Part shown: positions 421 through 62,009 of the stretch, one piece after another | Position numbering within the stretch: the stretch's first letter is position 1 | How the letters are laid out: each line of letters opens with the position of its first letter | Source: Eledone cirrhosa | Lineage: Eukaryota | Assembly (NCBI GenBank): GCA_964016885.1 | Contig: OZ024749.1 | Span: forward strand, 44,888,001-44,952,000 | Direction: 5' to 3' | DNA length: 64,000 bases | Notes under the pieces: model-generated | What the model saw: the letters and a program-made list of their open reading frames with translations, nothing else | The model's database searches: none | Told to the model about the DNA's origin: nothing | Position numbers and translations under genes: made by a program

Positions 421-517
421 CGATACGACGTGATACGACGAGATACGACGAGAATCGCTTCTTTTCTGCGTACTTCTATTTCGGGTACGCATTTTGTAAT
501 TATTGTCATGTTAGTAA

Positions 518-740
518 GGACGGTTGATTGGCAGTATCGGTAGAGGAACGGACGCCATGCTTTTCAACATAGAGTTACGACCCTTTATGATCTGAGTTCA
601 AATCCCGTCGAAGTTAACTTTGCCTTTCATCCTTACAGGGTCGATAAAATAAAGTACCAGTCACGTACTGGGGTTTATTTAATCGACTTTCCCCTCCCCC
701 AAAATTACTGGCCTTGTGCCTATACTAGAAATTATTATTA
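518..740 (+). mobile_element. tRNA-derived SINE, longer variant
   Basis: A-box-like TGGCAGTATCGG, B-box GAGTTCAAATCC, central GTTAACTTTGCCTTTCATCCTTACRGGGTCGATAAAATAAAGTACCAG (resembles the Nin-type SINE domain, from memory), ATT tail. About 10 copies in the window. Confidence 0.9.
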
Positions 741-748
741 CAACGAGA

Positions 749-933
749 GGTGGATTGACAGTATCAGTACAGGGTCGGACGCCATGCTTTGCAGAAAAGA
801 GTTACGGCTCTTCATGGTCTGAGTTCAAATCCCGCCCAGGTTAACTTTGCCTTTCATCCTTACAGGGTTGATAAAATAAAGTACCAGTAATACACTGGGT
901 TAATTGCTGACCTTGTGCCAAAAGTAGAAACAA
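749..933 (+). mobile_element. tRNA-derived SINE inserted at the tail of the preceding copy
   Basis: Same A box, B box and core. Flanked by the direct repeat ATTATTACAACGAGA (target-site duplication). Confidence 0.9.
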
Positions 934-1505
934 TTATTACAACGAGAATTTCTTCTTTTCTGCGTACTTCTATTTCGGGTACGTATTTTTAGGTTAGTAA
1001 ATTTTTTAGTAATTCTTTCTCCGGGTTTCAATTGACGTTCGACTATTATTTTATTCAGGATTGTGAAAGAATTTCCATTGTATTTTTCTTTGTGTCTTCC
1101 CGTTGTTTGCCGTACAATTTTATAATATTATTCATGATAAAGACAATCTTTTTCAAGTCTTTGATGCCCAGGTTTGCGCTTTTTGTGTGTTATGTCTTTG
1201 TTAATTTCTATATTTCTATCGACAATATACATTTACGACAATAGGGAAATGTATTGATTTAACAAAGTTTATAGTAATTTCACCCGTCATATTATTGTCA
1301 TTTTCATATATACGACCTTTAGAATTTTCTATATATAAATATTTCTCTGATTTTCTCGTGTTAATATTTTCTTTATCTGTTCATTCTGGTCAGTCTTCTG
1401 TCCGTGACTAAGGTTTATTTATTATTCGTAAACTGACACCTTTTTACAGTATAATATTGACATTATTGATGAAGGTTAAACACACACACATATATATATT
1501 TATAA

Positions 1506-1670
1506 AGGAAAAGTGTCAGTACCGACAGTTGAGCTCCGGCCGTTTGGCGAAACGGTCGGAGCTCACCCGTCGCGGTCCTGACTCTTTTCCTATTACCCAC
1601 TTTACTACCCTAAGTATTTAGTATTTGGTGCGTTATGGTCCATCTTGTTCCTTACCACACTTCCTTCGTT
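1506..1670 (+). mobile_element. Family A hairpin-plus-tail element (putative Penelope-like 3' end) in (TA)n
   Basis: Imperfect inverted repeat with apex at GTTT-GGC-GAAAC, then the shared tail ...ACTACCCTAAGTATT...GGTGCGTTATGGTCCA...CCTTACCACACTTCCTTCGTT(AT)n. Confidence 0.75.
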
Positions 1671-2469
1671 ATATATATATATATCCAGAAACAATCTAGC
1701 AATGACAACAATAACAAAAGAAAATCATTATACCTTTATTAAGTACCATCATTACTGAGAAAATTGAAAAAACAACAATACCAAAACGAGAAACAAACGC
1801 AAGAAAATAAATTCGTTAAACAAACAGAGGCCTCAAACAAATATAAACATATATATTTTTTTTTAATACGTAAAATCTATTTCTGTTAAAATTTGTTTAG
1901 TTACCATGGTGATAAACTATTTTAGATTAAATTCAAAGGACTACTTAGTTTTTAGATATTTTATCCTATTTTATTATTATTTCTTTTAATGAAGAAAATT
2001 ATTCTTTATAAGTCTTCCACCATTTTTTATTTAAACTTTTCCTGAGAATATAACAAAGCGAAGAAAGAAGAGTAACAATATATATATATATATATATAAA
2101 TATATATTATATGTGTATATATATATATATATAAAGAAGAATGCGATTTACAAAACAAAGAACGAAGGAACTGTAAGAAGACGTAAATTAAGTATTAAAT
2201 TGATTGTGCTGGTCAGTATATTCTATTATATATTTCAATACAGACAGTTTAAAGTGTAAATGTGCTTCAATGAAGCAGAAAATTAAACACCGCTAGACAC
2301 CTACTTATCTCCCCTTGTTGGTTTGTCTTATTTTGAATTACGTAAAAACAACGAAATGTATAGGTATCTACGCACATACAAACACACATCTCGCCAAAAC
2401 GACCAAACATACATTCATACATATATATATGCGTGTGTATGTATGTGTATATATATATATATATATATA

Positions 2470-2575
2470 TTTCGTTTCTGAATTTGTTTAGCAATATTCT
2501 TTATCTGAAAACGTGTGTTGAAACCGATATTGTTATGCTTTGGGAGGGTTATGTTGCCAATAAGAAACACACGCA
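2470..2575. mobile_element. Family J TA-adjacent element fragment with internal inversion
   Basis: 2470-2505 is the reverse complement of 29261-29295, while 2529-2562 matches 29230-29263 directly. Confidence 0.55.
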
Positions 2576-2921
2576 CCAGTCGCTTTCACTTAAATTTAGT
2601 ATAAATCAAATTTATAAATTTAGGAATTTATAAATTTCCGGTTAGTTGGTTGGTTCCACAACCAGACGATTGTTCATATATTGTCAAAGTCACACATTCT
2701 GTGACCTCTTCAGTGACTGGGATTCTTTTCTTTGTTTTTGTGCCGCTCCTTTGTTCTGTCCTACGCCATCTTGAAAAAACAAGACTGTTGTTTTTCTACG
2801 TCATCATAAATCCTGGCCAATAATTGCTGCCATACTGTTCATCAGCTACTCTCCGTCCGACACACTTCAATGAATACATGGTGGGTTTGGTATTTCACAA
2901 GTCACTCACACACACATATGT

Positions 2922-3005
<84 letters not shown>

Positions 3006-3009
<4 letters not shown>

Positions 3010-3321
3010 AGTGTAATTTTCTACACAAAGCGAAGGTTATAGAGAAAATTGAGGTTGGTAATGGCACATGGAATATATAAGAGACAGAATACTTTTTTGT
3101 GAAAAAACATAATTTTATAAGGTAAGGAAATAATAAAGGGTATAAAAAATGACCGGTTTCGATGGGTCTGCAAAAGCCATCTTTTCAAATGTTTTGCAGA
3201 CCCATCGAAACCGGTCATTTTTTATACCCTTTATTATTTCCTTACCTTATAAAATTATGTTTTTTCACAAAAAAGTATTCTGTCTCTTATATATTCCATG
3301 TGCCATTACCAACCTCAATTT

Positions 3322-3326
<5 letters not shown>
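3006..3326 (-). mobile_element. Hairpin-plus-tail element: 135-bp arms, 16-nt loop, 35-nt tail
   Basis: 3041-3175 is the reverse complement of 3192-3326 with no mismatch seen. Flanked by (TA)n and (CT)n(TA)n. Confidence 0.85.
3141..3197 (-). ncRNA. Type I hammerhead-like motif, U3-A8 variant
   Basis: AT-TTGAAAA-GATGG(cttttgcagac)CCATC-GAAA-CCGG-TC-AT: 5-bp stem II, palindromic CCGG stem III, GUC triplet. Stem I is weak. Confidence 0.6.
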
Positions 3327-3395
<69 letters not shown>

Positions 3396-3449
3396 TACAT
3401 ATATGCCAAAAGTAATCACAAACATACGTTCATACATACTTACACACGC

Positions 3450-3548
<99 letters not shown>

Positions 3549-3915
3549 CATACATACATACAAAGCAATGTATACGGAGACAGTTACACAGAAGTTAATC
3601 AATGCGCTAATGAGACTTTAGCTACAAATTCTATCGATGTATGGTAATCATACATTCCAAATTTTAAATTTTCCCAATGCTTCTTCAGAAACCACTGTTA
3701 CCACATCTATTTACAAGCTTAAATATTCTAAATAGACGGAATTAAAGGGCAGCTTCTCCTGAGCTGGTTGTTTATTGCTCTGTCAGTGTCCGAAACATTA
3801 GGTGTACGTTATTTCGTTTGCACACTTTTTTCTCTTGTGGTATGTCTCCTGGATTAGTTTAACTGATTTTCTTAAGAAACAGGCGCGCACACATTTTCCG
3901 GATACTTCTTAAGTC

Positions 3916-4027
<112 letters not shown>

Positions 4028-4099
4028 TTTATCCTTCTATGTTGTTCACTTGTCCCCCTCGCTTTACGCGATTACTGGTCCCAATAACTTTTTTTAGCT

Positions 4100-4235
4100 T
4101 ATTGCTCGCACCAACCTGAGGTATCTGATTTTTAATGCGATGAAATACCAATGATGGTTGGCAAATCACTGACGAAGGACTATTTTTATCATATGTAACA
4201 CATGTGCAAACCACGCAGTATTCTTCTTTCTTCTC

Positions 4236-4240
<5 letters not shown>
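4100..4240 (+). mobile_element. Family K TA-flanked element
   Basis: GGTTGG...TCACTGAYGAAGGACT...TATGTAAC.CAT.TGCAA...CGCAG is shared with 55113-55200 (-) and 48843-48874 (-). Confidence 0.55.
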
Positions 4241-4291
<51 letters not shown>

Positions 4292-4486
4292 TGATATGTA
4301 GAAAAGATAACACACGAGAGAGCGAGAGTGTGTGTTTATCAATGTACAGTGAAAACCACCAGTGTATGGAATCTATAAACTACGAAAGGTGAGGTAGACG
4401 CATAATAATTAAAAATATAAATCAGAATGAATTTACCCACCTCAACACACACATATATATATGTATATATATATATATATATATAT

Positions 4487-4673
4487 GCAAAGAGAGTGTG
4501 GTAAGATACCAGGTGGACCCTGACGCACAAGAGTATACTTAGAGTAGTAGAGTGGGTAATATGAAAATAGTCAGGACCCCAGGACCCCGCTCCAGCAGTT
4601 TCGACAGCTAGATCCATACGTTCGGATTTAGCTGTTGAAGAGGCTGGAGCTGAGCCGTCGAGGTCCTGACTCT

Positions 4674-8969: not shown

Positions 8970-9100
8970 TGGCACAAGGCCAGTGCATTACTGGTACTAT
9001 ATTTTTTCGACCCCGTAAGGATGAAAGGCAAAGTTAACCTCGGCGGGATTTGAACTCAGAATTGCAAGGGACGTAACTCTATGTTGCCAATCCACCGCCC
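8970..9100 (-). mobile_element. tRNA-derived SINE with internal deletions
   Basis: Reverse complement of the SINE core, B box and 5' GGGCGGTGGATTGGCA. Confidence 0.88.
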
Positions 9101-10336: not shown

Positions 10337-10785
10337 ACTAGACCTGAAAAATGCGCAAGCTCAAAAGAGCCACAGAATGTTATAATAAACCTTCAAAAGT
10401 GTGGGACTAGAGTTGTTGCTCAAAAATATTGTAATCATTATCTATCGTACACTCTGTGGCATACTTTTATAAAAAAAGAGACTCATAACGAACTCAAGAC
10501 GACACGATAATTATTTAAGCTAATGTTCAATATCTCATATTAGATGTTTAGTATTGATTAATACGAAATGCAATTAAACCAAATTCTATATTATAAATTC
10601 ACTTAAATAATTATCGTGTCGTCTTTAGTTCGTTATGAGTCTCTTTTTTTATAAAAGGATGCCACAGATGTGTACGATAGATAATGATTATAATATTTTT
10701 GAGCAACAACTCTAGTCCCACACATTTGAAGGTTTATTATAACATTCTGTGGCTCTTTTGAAGTTGCGCATTTTTCAGGTCTAGT
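10337..10785. repeat. Long inverted repeat, ~183-bp arms and 82-bp spacer
   Basis: 10337-10519 is the reverse complement of 10602-10785 with a few mismatches. Confidence 0.9.
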
Positions 10786-11339
10786 TTAATATGTTTTTAG
10801 GCAACGCTTGTAATAACTCTAGTTAAACATGATATATATATTAATAATAAATTATCGTTGTAATGTAATTAGATTATATAATTGTTATTTTATAAATCAT
10901 CTTATAAATATTATTGTAAGATGTATAAACATATTTTCAGACATTTAATAGTTAATATAAATTTAAAAAATCATATATAAATTAACAATACAACTTACCA
11001 AAACGAGAAAAATATTTTGATGATAAACGACGAAACACTGGAGGAAGATTCGAAAGCGAAACGATAGATAAACGCGGAAACAAAGTGGCGGATGCTTTTG
11101 AGCAACAATTACTCTCGTTGGTTGATTACCCAATAAGACGATGAAATTAGCTAATAAGACGATACATTACAAAAGATGTTTGGGAGGCATCACCACGGCC
11201 AGCGGTACCCCTTGAATTTTTTATTCACAAGCTACGCATGTATGTCAGACGCGCAGACTTAAAACATTCTGTTGTTAGTCACTGCGTGTCTAACAGATTA
11301 TATTATGTTATATTATTATATTATATTACATATAATACA

Positions 11340-11527
11340 GGGCGGTGGATTGGCAGTATCGGTAGAGGGTCGGACGCCATGTTTTGACGCATAGAGTTAC
11401 GGCCCTTGCCATTCTGAGTTCAAATCCCGCCGAGGTTAACTTTGCCTTTCATCCTTATGGGTTAGATAAAATAAAGTACCAGTAATGCACTGGGTAAGTG
11501 CTGGCCTTGTGCCAAAAAGTAGAAACA
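11340..11527 (+). mobile_element. tRNA-derived SINE with 20-bp flanking direct repeat
   Basis: Full A box, B box and core. ATTATATTATATTACATATA at 11315-11334 and 11528-11547. Confidence 0.92.
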
Positions 11528-11846
11528 ATTATATTATATTACATATAGAAATGTTGTGTTTCTATATATGTTTTCAATTATTTTAGACGCAGGCATTGCT
11601 GAGTTCATAAGAAGATCGCTGAGAAAACACCAGATTTAGGATATCAGAACATGAGGTTGAATATTGCAAGCAAGTATCTTAAATAAAACTTCTGATTGTC
11701 CCGTGTCTTGTGAAAATTGCTGCATGCAAGGATGGTCCTGTAAATCTTGAAGGAATTGTAGAAGCGCCATATTGACACACAGCATTCCTTGGGAATTTTA
11801 AAACCTGGCAGGGCACAACTCTCCAGGTCTGAGTACAGCAGAATGT

Positions 11847-11904: not shown

Positions 11905-12436
11905 AGGGTGTTAAAGTTTGCTTGAAGCATTGTGAAATGTGTAAAAATACGTATTTAAGAAAGCCACAACAATGCAAAGGGAAATCTCGAGGTAGGAAGT
12001 GAAATATAGATAGGAAAAACAGGTGAAAGTGAAAATTGAGAGAGACAAAGATGAAAACAAAACAAAGGTAGAAGGGTTACCGTAGTAGAGATTTAATCCC
12101 AATATTTTGGGCTCACGCCCATCAACGGGGGAAAAGTTCCAAAAGGGGGGAAACAGGCCAAGCGGAGAAAGTTCTCCCTTAACGGCATTCCTGTCTTAAC
12201 GACATCACAACTTTCTCCGCTTGGCCTGTTTCCCCCCTTTTGGAACTTCTCCCCCGTTGATGGGCGTGAGCCCGAAATATTGGGATTAAATCTCTACTAC
12301 GGTAACCCTTCTACCTTTGTTTTGTTTTCATCTTTGTCTCTCTCAATTTTCACTTTCACCTGTTTTTCCTATCTATATTTCACTTCCTACCTCGAGATTT
12401 CCCTTTGCATTGTTGTGGCTTTCTTAAATACGTATT

Positions 12437-12437
<1 letters not shown>
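11903..12437 (-). mobile_element. Family F hairpin-plus-tail element, ~229-bp arms, in (TA)n
   Basis: 11945-12173 is the near-perfect reverse complement of 12209-12437. Unpaired tail at 11903-11944. Confidence 0.85.
12250..12285 (+). ncRNA. Hammerhead-like motif with variant core
   Basis: TCCC-CCGTTGA-T-GGGC(GTGA)GCCC-GAAA-TA-TT-GGGA: 4-bp stem I and a GNRA-capped 4-bp stem II. Core deviates at U4C and A6U. Confidence 0.5.
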
Positions 12438-12468
<31 letters not shown>

Positions 12469-12469
<1 letters not shown>

Positions 12470-12610
12470 ACGAAGGAAATGTGGTAAGGAACCAGGTGGA
12501 CCATAACGCACCAAAGTACTCAATACTTAGGGTAGTAGAGTGGGTAATAGGAACCAGTAAGACCCCCGACGGCTGAGCTCAAGCCGTTTCGACGGCTAAT
12601 TCTGTACTAA
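12469..12610 (-). mobile_element. Family A element, single arm plus tail
   Basis: Reverse complement of the family A tail and arm, ending at the usual apex sequence AATTCTG.ACTA. TA-flanked. Confidence 0.75.
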
Positions 12611-12648
12611 AAACTATTATATATATATATATAAATATATATTATATA

Positions 12649-12750
<102 letters not shown>

Positions 12751-12860
12751 CGCTTCTACAGGAATAAAACTATTTTATTTGCATGAAATAAACAGATGTA
12801 TCCTGGACATTCATGGAAATTCCAAACGAACGAAAGAGCTCTAGTCCTTTATAAAATAAC

Positions 12861-13039
12861 TGTTTCTACTTTTGGCACAAGGCCAGTAATTATCACAGTG
12901 TATTACTGGTACTTTATTTTATCGATCCCTAGAATGATGAAAGGCAAAGTTAACCTCGGCAGGATTTGAACTCAGACCACAAAGGGACATAACTCTATGC
13001 TGAAAAGCATGGCGTTAGACCCTCTACCGATACTGCCAA
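12861..13039 (-). mobile_element. tRNA-derived SINE
   Basis: Reverse complement of the SINE consensus, lacking the first few bases. Confidence 0.9.
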
Positions 13040-13217
13040 ATAATGATGCCTATACTCTACCAACGTATTGAGTACCTTTTTAACCATGGTTACCTCCAGC
13101 ACCAATTGGGAACCTGCATATATATATATATATATATATGCAGGTTCCCAATTGGTGCTGGCGGTAACCACAGTTAAAAAGGTACTCAATACGTTGGTAG
13201 AGTATAGGGATCATTAT
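13040..13217. repeat. Inverted repeat (~78-bp arms) with (TA)n at the apex
   Basis: ATAATGAT...GTATTGAGTACC...GGGAACCTGCA(TA)nTGCAGGTTCCC...GGTACTCAATAC...ATCATTAT. Confidence 0.88.
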
Positions 13218-13221
13218 ATAT

Positions 13222-13410
13222 CGGTGGATTGGCAGTATCGGTAGAGAGTCGGACACCATGCTTTGAAGCATAGAGTTACGTCCCTTTATGATCTGAGTTC
13301 AAATCCCACCGAGGTTAACTTTGCCTTTCATCCTTACGGGGTCGATAAAATAAAGTACCAGTAATGCAATGGGTAATTGCTGGCCTTGTGCCAAAAGTAG
13401 AAACAATTAT
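13222..13410 (+). mobile_element. tRNA-derived SINE
   Basis: A box, B box, core and AGTAGAAACAATT end. Confidence 0.92.
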
Positions 13411-13420
13411 ATATATATAT

Positions 13421-13610
13421 GGCGGTGGATTGGCAGTAACGGTAGAGGGTCGGGCGCCATGCTTCCACGCATAGAGTTACGGCCCTTGCCATTCTGAGTT
13501 CAAATCCCGCCGAGGTTAACTTTGCCTTTCATCCTTACGGGGTTCGATAAAATAAAGTACCAGTAATACACTGGGTAATTGCTGGCCTTGTGCTAAAAGT
13601 AGAAACAATT
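13421..13610 (+). mobile_element. tRNA-derived SINE, tandem to the previous copy
   Basis: Starts GGCGGTGGATTGGCAG, matches the full consensus, ATT(AT)n on both sides. Confidence 0.92.
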
Positions 13611-14097
13611 ATATATATATATATATGTGTGTGTATCTGTGTGTGTGTGTTAAGAGAGAGAGAGATAAATAGTTAGATATGTACACATATCTATATATAT
13701 GATATATGATATACATCCGTTTCTGTTGGTAAGCGCGCGCCTGTGTGATGTGTGTCTGTATGTAAGTCAGAAATCTTATCCTATCCCATCAGCTGTCCTA
13801 AATCAGTTTTAGTATATCAATTTAACCGCGTGTAGGAGACAAAAATAATAAAATAGAACAGTAAAAAGCAAAACTAAACCTAACCGTACTTCATATTTCC
13901 TTCACAGTAAGCTAGTTCTCATGGGCAATAACTCACACCAGAGCGTTGTATGTGTCGTGTCAAATGTTCATGTGTGCTTCGTATTTTTTTTTATTTTTTT
14001 TTTGTTCTTGTTGTATTTGACTGTTGTCTGCTGTATTTTTTCCTCCATATAATCGTTTGTTTTAATAAGACTTTTTTTCTTTTTGTCAACGTCTTCG

Positions 14098-15920: not shown

Positions 15921-16108
15921 ATAGGAAAAAGTATGACCCAGACGGCAGAGCTCAAGCCGTTTCGACGGCTTTTTCTGGAAATAGCCGTCGAAACGGCTTG
16001 AGCTCTGCCGTCGGGGTCATACTTTTTCCTATTTCCCACTCTACTACCCTAAGTATTGAGTATTCTGGTGCGTTATGATCCATCTGGTTCCTTACCACAA
16101 TTCCTTTG

Positions 16109-16110
<2 letters not shown>
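15921..16110 (+). mobile_element. Family A hairpin-plus-tail element in (TA)n
   Basis: Inverted repeat 15921-16032 with apex TTTCTGGAAA, tail 16033-16110. Confidence 0.85.
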
Positions 16111-16171
<61 letters not shown>

Positions 16172-16664: not shown

Positions 16665-17208
16665 TAAAATAACATTAAAGTTTAAGCAAAGAATCGCTGT
16701 TTTCACCCTTAACGGGATCTTCTGAAACTAAAGAATTCAATCTGTGAACGCAGAAGTAAATATTTAAAAAAACGCGGCAACCGAAGGAAAACAGGAAGAC
16801 GATAGTTTGGTTCGTGGAAACGTAACTTGGCAAAGAACGGAAAAACGAAGATACTACGTCATTATACGACATCATTTATAACATAAACGTGGTTTTGTCT
16901 TTGTGTGTAATTGTTTTCACGCACCAAATAATGATGTATTATCTTCGTTTTTTTCCGTTCTTTGCCAGGGAACGTTTCCACGAACCAAATTATCGTCTTC
17001 CTGTCTTCCTTCGGTTGCAACGCTTTTTGAAATATTTACTTCTGCGTTCACAGATTGACTTTTTTAATATCAGAAGATCCCGTTAAGCGATTCTTTGCTT
17101 AAACTTTAATCTGTTATTTTAATAAATATTGGCTCTACGGTTCTTATATATCTGATATATATATTTATCCTTATCGAGCCCTATTTGGATTTTAGCCTTC
17201 AAATTTAT
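16664..17208 (+). mobile_element. Family H hairpin-plus-tail element, ~200-bp diverged arms
   Basis: ~16666-16865 is the reverse complement of ~16928-17120. The tail 17121-17208 recurs at 17938-18030 (-) and 50318-50400 (+). Confidence 0.8.
16679..16729 (-). ncRNA. Hammerhead-like motif, U4A variant (family H)
   Basis: AGTTT-CAGAAGA-TCCC(GTTAA)GGGT-GAAA-ACA...TGC-TT-AAACT. One mismatch in stem III. Confidence 0.5.
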
Positions 17209-17248
17209 TCTGAGCCGGATGGCTGAAACAGGTAAAAGGGTAAAAGAG

Positions 17249-23952: not shown

Positions 23953-23958
<6 letters not shown>

Positions 23959-24133
23959 CTTCAACAGAACTAGAAGTGTTTCATTCGGGAGAAATCATCA
24001 GGAAGCCCTGATGATTTCTCCCGAATGAAACAGTCCTAGTCCTGTAGAAGCCTTTCTATATTAAATATTTACAATCTGCTTTGTATTGAGTACCTTACTT
24101 ACTGTGGTTAGCTCCGATTGAACCCGGGATAAT
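23953..24133 (+). mobile_element. Family B hairpin-plus-tail element with hammerhead cores on both arms
   Basis: Inverted repeat ~23953-24058. Minus strand 24007->23957 reads GGCTTC-CTGATGA-TTTC(TCCC)GAAT-GAAA-CAC...CTG-TT-GAAGCC. Tail contains GTATTGAGTACC. Confidence 0.8.
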
Positions 24134-25514: not shown

Positions 25515-25520
<6 letters not shown>

Positions 25521-25849
25521 GTGAGGTTTTTTTTTACAAAATGAAAAATAACCGAGGTGTCCTACACGAGTGAAAGTATAAAGAAAAAAAGATGAAATCG
25601 AAAATGCAACTGGAGTCTTATTTTTTTAAAAAATATATATATTTATTTGGTTCCTTTACCGGTTTCGCAGTTCTTCTGCTTTTCAAAAGTAGAGTTGAGA
25701 TGGAGGATCTGTGGTTTTTCTCACAGACCCTCCATCTCAACTCTACTTTTGAAAAGCAGAAGAACTGCGAAACCGGTAAAGGAACCAAATAAATATATAT
25801 ATTTTTTTTAAAAATAGGACTCCAGTTGCATTTTCGATTTCATCTTTTT

Positions 25850-25853
<4 letters not shown>
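25515..25853 (-). mobile_element. Family I hairpin-plus-tail element, ~132-bp arms, in (TA)n
   Basis: 25582-25713 is the reverse complement of 25722-25853. Tail at 25515-25581. Confidence 0.85.
25746..25781 (+). ncRNA. Minimal type I hammerhead, U3-A8 variant (mirror copy 25654-25689 on -)
   Basis: CTT-TTGAAAA-GCAG(AAGAA)CTGC-GAAA-CCGG-TA-AAG. Confidence 0.65.
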
Positions 25854-26055: not shown

Positions 26056-26127
26056 TATTCTGTGGTGACAGTCAAGTTTTCAATTTTCAACTGTATATAT
26101 ATAAACACAACTGTATATATATACACA

Positions 26128-26274
26128 AACAAAGAAAGTGTGGTAAGATACCAAGTGGACCATAACGCACCAGATACTTAGGGTAATAGAGTGGGTAATA
26201 AGAAAAGAGTCAGGACCCCAATTTCGATCTATCTGTCGAAACGGTCGGAACTTAGCCGTCGAGGTCCTGACTCT

Positions 26275-26730: not shown

Positions 26731-26731
<1 letters not shown>

Positions 26732-26938
26732 TAGGAACGAGTAGGACCCCGACGGCTGAGTTCAAGCCGTTTCGACGGCTAATTCTGGACTAGTTCAGAA
26801 TTAGCCATCGAAACGGCTTGAGCTCAGCCGTCGGGGTCCTACTCGTTCCTATTAGTTCCTATTACCCACTCTACTACCCTAAGTATTGAGTACTTTGGTG
26901 CGTTATGGTCCACTTGGTTCCTTACCACATTTCCTTCG

Positions 26939-26940
<2 letters not shown>
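26731..26940 (+). mobile_element. Family A hairpin-plus-tail element in (TA)n
   Basis: Inverted repeat 26731-26852 centred on ACTAGT (26789-26794). Hammerhead 3' half GAAA-CGGCT(TGAGCTC)AGCCG-TC at 26810-26832. Confidence 0.85.
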
Positions 26941-27026
<86 letters not shown>

Positions 27027-27029
<3 letters not shown>

Positions 27030-27141
27030 GAAGGAGGTGAGGTAAGGAACTAGATGAGGTAAGATCAAAACGCACCAGAGGACTCAGTACTTAGGGTAGT
27101 AGAAATAGCAGTCGAAACGGCTTGAGCTCTGCCGTCGGGGT
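27027..27141 (-). mobile_element. Family A element, deleted derivative
   Basis: Diverged tail plus GAAATAGCAGTCGAAACGGCTTGAGCTCTGCCGTCGGGGT. Confidence 0.7.
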
Positions 27142-27562
27142 AAAACATATATATATATGTTTCAAAGAATAAAATTGCTCCAACCCCCAACACTGATCCA
27201 GCCAGCCATTCAAATATTGCATTAGATTTCATATGTGCCTATGTTAGAAATTATTGCAATGCAAAAGAAATATGAATTTTACCTTTTATTTATTTATTTA
27301 TTTATTTTTTGTATTGTTTAACAAAGTTTTATATTGTGTTTCTTTTGTTGAATTATCTTCATGTAGTTGTTTTGTTTTTAATATTTCATTATATTTCATT
27401 GTATTATTTACGTATATATCCTTATTATTAATATGAATATTATTATCATCATCATCATTATAATCAATATCATCATCACTGAATCAATTATTGTTATTAT
27501 CATTATTATTATTGTTATTCGGCCCTTGTGGCCAATAAATGAAATCATTATTATTATTGTTA

Positions 27563-27747
27563 AGGGTGGTGGATTGGCAGTATCGGTAGGGGTCAGACGT
27601 CAGGCTTTCCAAAATAGTTACGTCCCTTTACGATCTGAGTTCAAATCCCGCAGATGTTGACTTTGCCTTTCATCCTTACGGGATCGATAAAATAAAGTAC
27701 CAGTAATGCACTGGGTAATTGCTGGCCTTGTGCCTAAAGTAGAAACA
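27563..27747 (+). mobile_element. tRNA-derived SINE with 16-bp TSD
   Basis: Consensus match. ATTATTATTATTGTTA at 27547-27562 and 27748-27763. Confidence 0.9.
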
Positions 27748-27773
27748 ATTATTATTATTGTTATTATTATTAT

Positions 27774-28864: not shown

Positions 28865-28889
28865 CATATATATATATATATTATATATG

Positions 28890-28980
<91 letters not shown>

Positions 28981-28981
<1 letters not shown>

Positions 28982-29172
28982 ACAAAGGAATTGTGGTAAG
29001 TGCCTAGATGGACCATGACGCACCAGAGTACTCAATACTTAGGGTAGTAGAGTGGGAAATAGGAAAATGTATGACCCCGACGGCAGAGCTCAAGCCGTTT
29101 TGACGGCTATTTCTGGACTAGAAATAGCCGTCGAAACGGCTTGAGCTCTGCCGTCGGGGTCATACTTTTGCC

Positions 29173-29175
<3 letters not shown>
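28981..29175 (-). mobile_element. Family A hairpin-plus-tail element in (TA)n
   Basis: Tail 28981-29058, inverted repeat 29059-29175 with apex TTCTGGACTAGAA. Confidence 0.85.
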
Positions 29176-30640: not shown

Positions 30641-30780
30641 AGCATAGTTACGTCCCTTTACAGTCTGAGTTCAAATCCCGCCGAGGTTAACTCTGCCTTT
30701 CATCCTTACGGGGTCGATAAACTAAAGTACCAGTAATGTACTGATTAATTGCTGTCCTTGTGCCTAAAGTAGAAACAATT
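30641..30780 (+). mobile_element. 5'-truncated tRNA-derived SINE
   Basis: B box, core and 3' end present, A box missing. Confidence 0.88.
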
Positions 30781-31003
30781 ATACTTTTGTTACTTATTTT
30801 CTCTACTCTCTCTCTCTCTCTCTCCCCTCTCTCTCTCTCTATATATATATATATCTCCCTCCCTCTTTATATCACCTTCTATCTGTTTTCCTCTGAATAA
30901 CTATTATTGACGGTCTTCGCTTTCTTATCTGCTTATTTCTTCCCCTGTTCGCCACTTTCTCTTTAATTCTCTCTCTGTATCACTTTTACTCTCCCTCCTT
31001 CTC

Positions 31004-45989: not shown

Positions 45990-46541
45990 GACACGCACAT
46001 ACATACATATATATACATTATTATATATATATGTATATATATATATAATATATACATATATATATAATATATATATACATATATATATATATATTATCAT
46101 ACATATAGATATATACATATATGCGTGTGTGTGTATGTGTATGTTCTGCCCTAAATATATATAAAATTACATATCTCCCTCCCCAAGTCTCTCGCTCTTT
46201 CTCTCTATCGTTGACCTGCCTTGTCTATCCCTTCTCTTAACTACCAATCTACCTCTGTTTATCTCCCGTTCTCATAATCTATCTCTGTGTCACCCTCTTC
46301 TCACTTCAAACAGTAAACTAAAGCTACGTGAGACCAGGTCACTGTTGGTGTGGAGGTGTGAGAACACGACGACTAACAAACTAACAATCGTCCTCTTGTC
46401 CTACCTATATTACAACCAGGTACCCTGCAGTCCTGCACACCCTTCCACCTCTATCTCCATACATTATATAGCTCAGAAAATACAGATGAACATAAAATAC
46501 GTATACACAGACACAAACATATATATATATATATATATATA

Positions 46542-46720
46542 TGAGATTCTACAGGACTAGAACTGTTTCCTTCTTTAGAAATCATCAGGAATCCTGATGA
46601 TTTCTAAAGAATGAAACAGTTCTAGTCCTGTAGAATCTCATCTATATTAAAATTGTTATACTCTGCAATGTATTGAGTACCTTACTTACTGTGGTTACCT
46701 CCGATTCAACCCGGAATAAC
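46542..46720 (+). mobile_element. Family B hairpin-plus-tail element in (TA)n
   Basis: Inverted repeat ~46541-46641 with apex GGAATCC. Tail contains GTATTGAGTACCTTACTTACTGTGG. Confidence 0.85.
46545..46593 (-). ncRNA. Complete canonical type I hammerhead ribozyme (family B)
   Basis: GATTC-CTGATGA-TTTC(TAAA)GAAG-GAAA-CAG(TTCTAGTC)CTG-TA-GAATC: all three stems pair, full core, GUA cleavage triplet. Confidence 0.85.
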
Positions 46721-48843: not shown

Positions 48844-48886
48844 TGATAATAAGGGCGCTGCGGAGTTGCAAATGTATATATATATA

Positions 48887-49040
48887 TGTAGAAAGGTTCT
48901 AAAGGACTAGAACTGTTTCATTCCGGAGAAATCATCCGGAAGCTTCCTGATGATTTCTCCGGAATGAAAAAGTTCTAGTCCAGTAGAAGCCTTTCTACAT
49001 TAAATATTTATACTCTGTATTGAGTACCTTATTTACTGTA
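48887..49040 (+). mobile_element. Family B hairpin-plus-tail element with degenerate hammerhead
   Basis: Inverted repeat centred on AAGCTT (48940-48945). GCTTC-CTGATGA...GAAA...GTA-GAAGC at 48942-48990, stem III mutated. Confidence 0.8.
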
Positions 49041-59840: not shown

Positions 59841-59919
<79 letters not shown>

Positions 59920-59998
59920 AACCACAGACCCTCCATCTCAACTCTACTTTTGAAAAGAAGAAGAACTGCGAAACCGGTAAAGGAACCAAATAAATATA
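59920..59998 (+). mobile_element. Family I fragment with U3-A8 hammerhead motif (59947-59982)
   Basis: Near-identical to 25722-25800. One stem II substitution. Confidence 0.8.
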
Positions 59999-60585
59999 TA
60001 TATATACATACATATATATATATATATATACATATATATACATATATATATAAATAGAGAGGAAGTTAGATAGAAATAAGAGAAGAGAGAATACTTGAGA
60101 GAGGTGCTATACATACCCAAATATATTGTATTACAATGTTAGTAAAATAATACACTTCATCTCTTTTTTATACCTACAGCTATATCTAGGGATGTATCTT
60201 ATATCTCTATAGTGTATATCAATTTACATATTAAGAAGGAATTACATCTACATATATAAATGTGCAAGAAAAATAGACACGTATTTTTATACACACACAT
60301 TCTCATCTCACACACCTATATATACCGGTAAATGGTTGTATATACTCTAGACATACATTTATTTTCCTCTATTAAACTGTCATATACATGCTGTATACAT
60401 GCACACCAATATTATTGTGCATTTGTGGCTGTACATCTATATCTCTATAATGGCACGAACATGAAACATTGTTTAAACATGCATTACCTAAATTGTGTAA
60501 CTAAAATAGCTTAATTACAATGCATTTCTGTCTGTTTTGGTATCTGCATATAAACATGTTTCTGTCTGTTAAACATGCTCAACAG

Positions 60586-60727: not shown

Positions 60728-61097
60728 CCACACCCACACCCACACACCCACACACACACACATACTTACACACTAAAATAGATGTTGCAATCGTTGATAA
60801 ATCATTTTACCATGCGTCCATGATGTCCAATCGCACGAAAAATTGTTAAAAACCGCTGTTAAATACGTGAAGAAGTAATTAATAGCCATACTTATTCTGA
60901 AGATGGAATAGTAAAAGTCTCGAAACACTAATACATATATGTATTTTAGGAAGCTTGTAATTAAAATCAAGCATTCATGCGTAAAATACTAACAAGTAAA
61001 TTAACAAATTATAGATAACCTGTTTCAAAGAGAGGCTATTCGCTATTTCCTACACGTAGAAATATTATATGTATATATATATATATATATAAATATA

Positions 61098-61270
61098 TGA
61101 AAAAGTATGACCCCGACGGCAGAGCTCAAGCCGTTTCGACGGATATTTCTGGACTAAATTGAGCTCTGCCGTCGGGGTCATACTTTTTCCTATTGCCACT
61201 CTACTACCATAAGTATTGAGTACTCTGGTGCGTTATGGTCCATCTGGTTCCTGACCACAATTCCTTTCTT
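61098..61270 (+). mobile_element. Family A hairpin-plus-tail element with deletion at the apex
   Basis: Family A arms and tail, TA-flanked. Confidence 0.8.
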
Positions 61271-61449
61271 ATATATATATATATATATATGTCATAGGCA
61301 ACATACTTTGTCATTTCATATCAAGTAATGAAAATATGTATTCATTGGAGGTACACTATAACGAATTAGCAATTAGTGTTGCCTCTGACAAACATTTACG
61401 TGAAATATAATTAAAAAAAGGTCAACAATCTGCAATATGTGCACACATA

Positions 61450-61561: not shown

Positions 61562-62009
61562 TGCAAAAGTTCTATTTAAATTGTTGGGATACAACAAGCA
61601 AATATTTTTATAACTGATATAAAGCACTCAACAAGTATTTGGAGTAAACATACGATATTAACAAATGGAAACTATATTTATAAAACCATATTTATTTCAT
61701 TATACATATTTCAAGGACACCAAGTTAAATTATGGTGTGCTTTCATCAGACAAAATATAATATATATCAGTTTTATAAATAAATATTGACATATCCTTAA
61801 AAAATGCAACCATTTCTGTTGACTATCCGGGAGCTTTCAACAGTAATGGTTGCATTTTTTAAGGGTATGTCAATATTTATTTATAAAACTGATCTATATT
61901 ATATTTTGTCTGATGAAAGCACACCATAATTTAACTTGGTGTCCTTGAAATATGTATAATGAAATAAATATGGTTTTATAAATATAGTTTCCATTTGTTA
62001 ATATCGTAT
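61562..62009 (-). mobile_element. Family C hairpin-plus-tail element, ~170-bp arms
   Basis: ~61650-61822 is the reverse complement of ~61837-62009. Tail 61562-61649 matches the reverse complement of ~28695-28791. Confidence 0.85.
61902..61966 (+). ncRNA. Type I hammerhead (family C), mirror copy 61693-61757 on -
   Basis: TATTTTGT-CTGATGA-AAGcACACCA(10 nt)TGGTGTcCTT-GAAA-TATGTA-TA-ATGAAATA. Confidence 0.75.

What the first reader, a model, noticed from the sequence alone, without database searches (positions are those of the whole stretch)
25515..25853. U3-A8 covariant hammerhead core in two different families
Family I (25746-25781, mirror 25654-25689, third copy 59947-59982) and the 3-kb element (3141-3197 -) both have TTGAAAA where CTGANGA is expected, followed by a clean stem II and GAAA-CCGG-TH. 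Established: C3-G8 is a Watson-Crick tertiary pair and U3-A8 preserves it. Two different stem II sequences with the same double change suggest a functional variant lineage that CUGANGA-based searches would miss.
Basis: partly seen in the sequence, partly recalled or inferred. Interest (0 to 1): 0.75.

Follow-up and report, generated by a model that had tools for sequence, protein, structure and literature searches.

The report
Penelope hammerheads with U-A core
These hairpins are end pieces of two sister jumping-gene families that inherited a hammerhead-shaped RNA motif with an already published U-A core pair, while a third sister spread to over 10,000 copies with a core base changed, so cutting is likely not needed for copying.

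Summary
In detail: four U3-A8 minimal type I hammerhead motifs lie at the stated places (the 59.9-kb copy has a broken stem II pair). They are 3' pseudo-LTR fragments of two Neptune-type Penelope-like elements (RT, zinc finger, GIY-YIG), with 19,605 and 2,352 genomic matches (controls 0). U3-A8 in PLE hammerheads is in print (Cervera and De la Pena 2014, same UUGAAAA heptamer; Perreault 2011), and this scan found it before on other DNA and in this genome. The two families are not independent evidence: their proteins are 57% identical and form one clade (100/100) with a third U3-A8 family. Across 29 related elements the pair flips C-G/U-A six times and stays matched, which supports long-term selection on the fold. 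Against a need for cutting: the third sister has A13C in 97 of 100 listed of 10,758 matches, 24 of 100 listed copies of another family are C3-A8, and copies show no clear break at the cut site (66 against 47 at a control position). Cleavage was not tested. Known kind, new members; the A13C sister gives a natural test.

The parts
25515..25725 (-). Family I PLE 3' end, long arm: pLTR with hammerhead motif and the about 63-nt tail, ending at (AT)n
   Evidence: 96% to the 3' end of L001, which carries a GIY-YIG remnant 1.26 kb upstream of the motif; two fixed ends seen across L001-L030
25722..25853 (+). Family I PLE 3' end, short arm (no tail), joined head to head with the long arm
25746..25781 (+). 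Minimal type I hammerhead motif, U3-A8 core, 3-bp stem I, 4-bp stem II, palindromic ACCGGU stem III, GUA triplet
25654..25689 (-). Mirror copy of the same motif
59919..60003 (+). Single 5'- and 3'-truncated family I fragment; motif at 59947-59982 with a C-to-A change that breaks stem II pair 10.2-11.2
3006..3193 (-). Family II PLE 3' end, long arm with tail
   Evidence: 99.5% to the pLTR of full-length copy L068
3149..3190 (-). Family II minimal hammerhead motif, U3-A8 core, 5-bp stem II, ACCGGU stem III, GUC triplet, weak stem I
3192..3326 (+). Family II short arm; starts inside loop II and lacks the UUGAAAA half of the core

Best explanation
The four motifs are copies of the pseudo-LTR hammerhead motif of two sister Neptune-type Penelope-like retrotransposons, which share a U3-A8 core pair that they likely inherited from one ancestor, and which is predicted to fold and cut weakly as a dimer in element RNA but is likely not required for copying. 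Shown: the motifs, their link to RT/GIY-YIG frames, the copy numbers, the clade, the matched 3-8 pair across relatives, and the spread of the A13C sister. Inferred: two motifs (5' and 3' pLTR of a tandem transcript, 4.67-4.89 kb apart in family II, or two RNAs) pair through ACCGGU to build stem III, U3-A8 replaces C3-G8 as the tertiary pair, and cleavage after GUA or GUC is slow or helped by the element's protein. Inferred: the window copies are dead head-to-head by-products of reverse transcription started at the two internal sites that define the tail; a transcript through them would fold into one long hairpin that buries the motif.
For: Family II: full-length copies with a motif at both ends and a 777-aa RT-ZnF-GIY-YIG frame (Pfam RVT_1 E 4.6e-7). 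Family I: 775-aa frame with the motif 1.2-1.7 kb behind the endonuclease end in 29 of 30 loci. Proteins I/II/Y 56-57% identical, one clade at 100/100. In 79 related loci from other animals' DNA a detector blind to positions 3 and 8 gave 40 coding-strand hits, 37 Watson-Crick (29 C-G, 7 U-A, 1 A-U; near-duplicates included), against 3 of 8 on the other strand and 3 of 19 in five shuffles. The tree needs 6 changes (at least 4 forced), and one U-A clade is rejected (p-AU 2.3e-16). Single mismatches are rare and look like decay: U3-G8 194 (control 49), C3-R8 322 (control 188). Stem III duplex -8.3 kcal/mol; window palindromes -200 and -120 kcal/mol. Not required: family Y has GCAA for GAAA in 97 of 100 listed of 10,758 matches and GAAA in 35; hammerhead mutants did not affect insertion of an anole PLE in vitro (PMC11167929, passages).
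Against: No cleavage assay and no RNA data here. Stem I is weak (3-4 bp in I, 2 bp plus a mismatch in II) and the monomer folds are no better than shuffles (z -0.2 to -0.9). In families I, III and Y, U3 can pair with A17 (1.7 kcal/mol more stable in the open monomer), the analogue of the inactive C3-G17 trap (PMC3884650, passages), so these may not cut at all. That A13C kills cutting is recalled, not shown; PMC3088659 only lists A13 as consensus core. The tree labels for family X (set by hand, U-U at the base of stem I) and L445 (motif upstream of the frame) are uncertain, and L432 is a long branch.
Confidence: 0.75

Rival explanations
1. In this clade the motif no longer cuts: U3-A8 is inherited from an active ancestor, and the shape is now kept as a binding or positioning element for the RT protein next to the reverse-transcription start sites, or is simply carried along.
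For: A13C fixed in family Y with stems II and III intact; U3-A17 trap possible in I, III, Y; weak stem I; tandem family II copies keep 100-300 nt upstream of the 5' motif, so uncut RNA was the template; a separate C3-G8 family has GAAC for GAAA in most of 3,448 matches; 24 of 100 C3-A8 in another family.
Against: Families I, II and III keep all other core positions over about 0.7 substitutions per protein site while stem II changed completely but stayed paired; copies starting at the predicted cut site are somewhat more frequent than at a control position (66 against 47).
Confidence: 0.3
2. Cutting is required in all these families, and A13C or C3-A8 cores are tolerated in this context or are rescued in mixed dimers by an intact partner.
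For: Strong matching of the 3-8 pair across lineages; the shared ACCGGU palindrome would let family Y RNA pair with family I or II RNA (inference from sequence).
Against: In vitro insertion by an anole PLE did not need cleavage (PMC11167929, passages); Naiads spread without canonical motifs (PMC8557442, passages); under 1% of family I copies begin at the cut site.
Confidence: 0.12
3. The two families changed C3-G8 to U3-A8 independently.
For: The pair does flip often among relatives (6 changes on 29 rows; label not clustered, 94-95 of 500 shuffles as low).
Against: All sampled members of the I/II/III/Y group are U3-A8 and I, II, Y form a 100/100 clade; one change explains them.
Confidence: 0.08

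Closest known systems
Minimal hammerheads of metazoan Penelope-like elements, U3-A8 variant of Schistosoma mansoni Cercyon (Cervera and De la Pena 2014, PMC4209133; parts 1-2 of 4 read, supplement searched)
   Same: Type I minimal motif in pLTRs, short stem I, G10.1-C11.1, palindromic stem III, U3-A8 core (about 1,300 hits there; supplement shows UUGAAAA), pairs on opposite strands 100-700 bp apart, mostly truncated copies.
   Different: Host and clade (Neptune-type here); no bulged base before stem II; about 20 times more copies; a sister family with A13C. The supplement search found no 'octopus' (one of its files could not be searched).
Natural U3-A8 hammerheads (Perreault et al. 2011, PMC3088659; passages)
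   Same: States that C3-G8 covaries to U3-A8 in several natural examples and that such ribozymes were shown active in vitro.
   Different: Those are monomer-competent motifs; the cited activity paper (Przybilski and Hammann 2007) was not held, so its rates were not seen.
Neptune/Nematis EN+ Penelope-like elements (Craig et al. 2021, PMC8557442; passages)
   Same: C-terminal GIY-YIG, CX2-5CxxC linker, (TA)n targets, tandem and inverted pLTRs, optional tail; Fig. 1 legend says ORF1 can be separated by a frameshift.
   Different: Tail here is 57-63 nt, not 30-40; no named Neptune or Nematis reference was placed in my tree.
PAc Poseidon element of the green anole (Frangieh et al. 2024, PMC11167929; passages)
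   Same: pLTR hammerhead upstream of two RT start sites that define the tail.
   Different: C3-G8 core, Poseidon clade; tested in vitro (protein-assisted cutting, not needed for insertion), whereas these are untested.

Membership tests
Minimal type I hammerhead (PLE type) | Core N3-UGA-N-N8-A ... GAAA ... UH with Watson-Crick 3-8 pair | tested here: met
   (families I and II)
Minimal type I hammerhead (PLE type) | Stem II closed by G10.1-C11.1 | tested here: met
   third copy has one internal mismatch
Minimal type I hammerhead (PLE type) | Palindromic stem III for dimer formation | tested here: met
   ACCGGU, duplex -8.3 kcal/mol
Minimal type I hammerhead (PLE type) | Stem I of about 3-5 bp next to the core | tested here: inconclusive
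   4 bp in the major family I form, 3 bp in the window form, 2 bp plus mismatch in family II
Minimal type I hammerhead (PLE type) | Self-cleavage after UH | not testable with these tools
   No assay; genomic break-point proxy inconclusive
EN+ Penelope-like element | RT with C-terminal GIY-YIG endonuclease | tested here: met
   homologs carry PF00078 and often PF01541
EN+ Penelope-like element | Direct or inverted pseudo-LTRs with optional tail | tested here: met
Neptune/Nematis clade | CX2-5CxxC linker before GIY-YIG and (TA)n targeting | tested here: met
   CGRSNCGTC and CGRTNCGTC; (AT)n flanks
Neptune/Nematis clade | Placement with named reference elements | not tested
   No named references were in the tree
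Non-LTR retrozyme | Non-coding tandem units of a few hundred bases | tested here: not met
   Families I and II are ends of coding elements; tandem arrays in this genome are other families

The most novel reading that the evidence does not exclude
One Penelope clade in this genome is a natural series from ribozyme to non-catalytic signal: family II (U3-A8, C17) still cuts, family I (U3-A8, A17, self-trapping U3-A17 pair) barely cuts, and family Y (A13C) does not, yet I and Y outnumber II five- to eightfold; the hammerhead shape is kept as the RT protein's docking element and loss of cutting favours copying.
Probability: 0.25. Interest if true: 0.6.

Novelty: new member of a known kind. Interest (0 to 1): 0.27.

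Why it matters
The U3-A8 swap itself is published, so the finding as written adds members, not a new kind. Two things have some value. CUGANGA descriptors miss about a third of the minimal hammerhead-type matches in this genome (29,668 against 62,352 raw). And whether PLE hammerheads must cut is open; three young sister families with intact proteins and cores of graded quality (II, I, Y) let one test cutting against insertion within one clade.

Tried and rejected
Rfam scan: swamped by microsatellite microRNA matches, no hammerhead among the 150 shown. The repeat finder: swamped by (AT)n. Fossil cut marks (lead from e1-8643110): by eye, 13 of the first 100 of 642 rows (11 events) began at the cut site against 20 events over positions -9 to -3; direct counts gave 66 against 47 at position -4, and 35 of the 66 follow TAT and could be joins to (TA)n; family II was dominated by poly(T) length changes: inconclusive. 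Sequencing runs: no RNA holder listed; read laying not used. L031 (same-strand pair 3.07 kb apart) held no frame. No RT was linked to the two C3-G8 families tried, so the in-genome outgroup is missing and outgroups came from other animals' DNA. Tree rows dropped before counting: of 57, 22 without a motif call, L460 (motif identical to L403's, likely a neighbour's) and 5 near-duplicates. No stimulatory fold stood out behind the slippery sites (z -0.5 to +0.3). Paper searches 'hammerhead'+'U3A8' (0), 'hammerhead ribozyme'+'A13C' (0) and A13 variants (13 listed, none on the hammerhead core by title or abstract start) found no report of a natural A13C core; Przybilski and Hammann 2007, Nelson and Uhlenbeck 2008 and Lunse et al. 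2017 were not held and may bear on rates and on known variants.

Full report
Observation. The four motifs are present. Each reads TTGAAAA, stem II, GAAA-CCGG-T-H. Three have a clean stem II; the copy at 59950 has one broken pair. A scan of both strands found no other GAAA-CCGG-TH with a core in front; the + arm at 3207 lacks the first half of the core. The window lies in a 3.0-Gb animal genome. Family I has 19,605 matches at up to 2 mismatches and family II 2,352 at up to 3, with reversed controls of 0.

What carries them. Family II pairs on one strand 4.67-4.89 kb apart enclose an ORF1 and a 777-aa frame with RT, a CX4CxxC linker and GIY-YIG. Walking upstream from family I led to an endonuclease remnant, then to 775-aa frames; 29 of 30 loci had the motif 1.2-1.7 kb downstream. 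Both insert in (AT)n and end at two fixed points 57-63 nt apart. This is the pseudo-LTR and tail anatomy of EN+ PLEs with the Neptune/Nematis linker (PMC8557442, passages). The window copies are head-to-head fragments with one long and one short arm; as RNA each would be one long hairpin, so they are unlikely to act as ribozymes themselves (inference).

Minimal-motif patterns gave C3-G8 62,352 (control 4,105) and U3-A8 29,668 (control 2,360). With CCGG fixed, U3-G8 gave 194 (control 49) and C3-R8 322 (control 188). Exact family I single changes were 10 and 20 of the first 100 rows of those two lists, against 11,732 family I matches with positions 3, 7 and 8 free; no copy was changed at both 3 and 8. 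Family II was U3-A8 in 100 of 100 listed of 1,971. Such counts reflect the master copies plus neutral decay; they fix the family state but do not show function.

One event, not two. The proteins of I and II are 57% identical. Two more families were traced: III (endonuclease 79-85% to II) and Y (56-57% to both), both U3-A8. I, II and Y form one clade at 100/100. Family X (41-44%) has a U3-A8-like motif with a poor stem I and sits elsewhere, among C3-G8 relatives.

Real covariation lies deeper. From 79 related loci in public contigs a detector that ignores positions 3 and 8 gave 37 matched pairs among 40 coding-strand hits, against 3 of 8 on the other strand and 3 of 19 in shuffles. On a careful tree of 29 of 57 rows (dropped: 22 without a call, one misassigned, five near-duplicates) the label changes 6 times, at least 4 forced by well-supported branches; a single U-A clade is rejected. 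Repeated double changes that stay paired argue that the 3-8 pair, and so the active fold, was under selection over long times. Two labels are uncertain (family X, L445) and the tree is unrooted.

Results against a required cut. Family Y keeps U3-A8, stem II and ACCGGU but has C at position 13: 97 of 100 listed of 10,758 exact matches, with only 35 GAAA copies, and it has intact young frames. A13 is in the consensus core (PMC3088659, passages); that its loss stops cutting is recalled, and three searches found no paper on it (for U3A8). A third family whose truncated ends occur at least nine times in this window has C3-A8 in 24 of 100 listed of 1,682, as note e1-8836956 reported. Family I copies starting at the cut site number 66 against 47 at a control position, with a (TA)n confound. 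Tandem family II copies keep sequence upstream of the 5' motif. In I, III and Y the cleavage-site base is A, which can pair with U3, by analogy with the inactive C3-G17 pairing (PMC3884650, passages).

Mechanism. Most likely the motif folds as a dimer through ACCGGU, uses U3-A8 as the tertiary pair, and cuts slowly or with protein help (inferred from PMC4209133, parts 1-2 read, and PMC11167929, passages), while copying uses uncut RNA. The rival that it is now only a docking shape has about 0.3.

Novelty. U3-A8 in PLE minimal hammerheads is described in PMC4209133 (about 1,300 hits; supplement shows UUGAAAA) and natural U3-A8 in PMC3088659. The retrozyme preprint 10.64898/2026.07.22.740005 (abstract and term search only; supplements closed) does not mention it. 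The scan noted the swap before in this and other genomes and the ORF1 frameshift in this genome; a sequence look-up for family Y found nothing. Verdict: new members of a known kind, interest 0.27.

Noticed in passing
L310-L329, L360 (motif at 1299 -, frame 2041-4380 -): Family Y, sister of I and II, has G12-C13-A14-A15.1; 10,758 exact matches, 35 with GAAA.
   Followed up: partly
L136:4824-4832, L068 about 4570 (-), L360, L361; L413, L415, L426, L434, L438: ORF1 overlaps the RT frame at -1 with U UUU UUA in families I, II, X, Y, and in the same phase in several relatives; family I has no ATG before the first RT motif. Already noted by the scan.
   Followed up: partly
window 1548-1684, 4452-4605, 12437-12611, 15921-16144, 26095-26219, 26731-26974, 27025-27141, 28882-29175, 61095-61288: Truncated ends of a third U3-A8 family (long stems II and III, CCCC/GGGG stem I); all window copies lack the first half of the core; a C3-A8 subfamily exists.
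   Followed up: partly
window 23955-24132, 46524-46719, 48873-49039: Fold-back copies of a C3-G8 motif family (CTGATGA ... GAAACAGTTC), 7,940 exact matches; no RT link found in 30 loci.
   Followed up: partly
L330-L359: C3-G8 family with GAAC in place of GAAA (A15.1C) in most of 3,448 matches; only 25 have GAAA with no other mismatch.
   Followed up: partly
G000:C1:6519946-6521556: Tandem array (316-bp unit) with a U3-A8 motif and CATG palindrome, probably a retrozyme.
   Followed up: no
family III rows: U3-G8 copies seem more frequent than C3-A8 copies in the older family III (6 against 1 exact rows of 100 listed each); could be decay or an older U-G form.
   Followed up: no
L471:6011: A3-U8 minimal motif near a PLE relative.
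   Followed up: no
window 10337-10785, 11942-12440, 16665-17209, 61650-62009: Further (AT)n-flanked fold-back insertions, likely ends of other PLE families.
   Followed up: no
window 515-939, 8980-9086, 11335-11571, 12851-13646, 27550-27758, 30641-30797: About ten copies of a 190-240-bp SINE-like repeat with a tRNA-like head.
   Followed up: no
L413-L417, L425, L434, L475, L476, L477; P0014, P0036, P0042: Animal PLE sequences sit in records labelled as bacteria or symbionts, likely host contamination.
   Followed up: no
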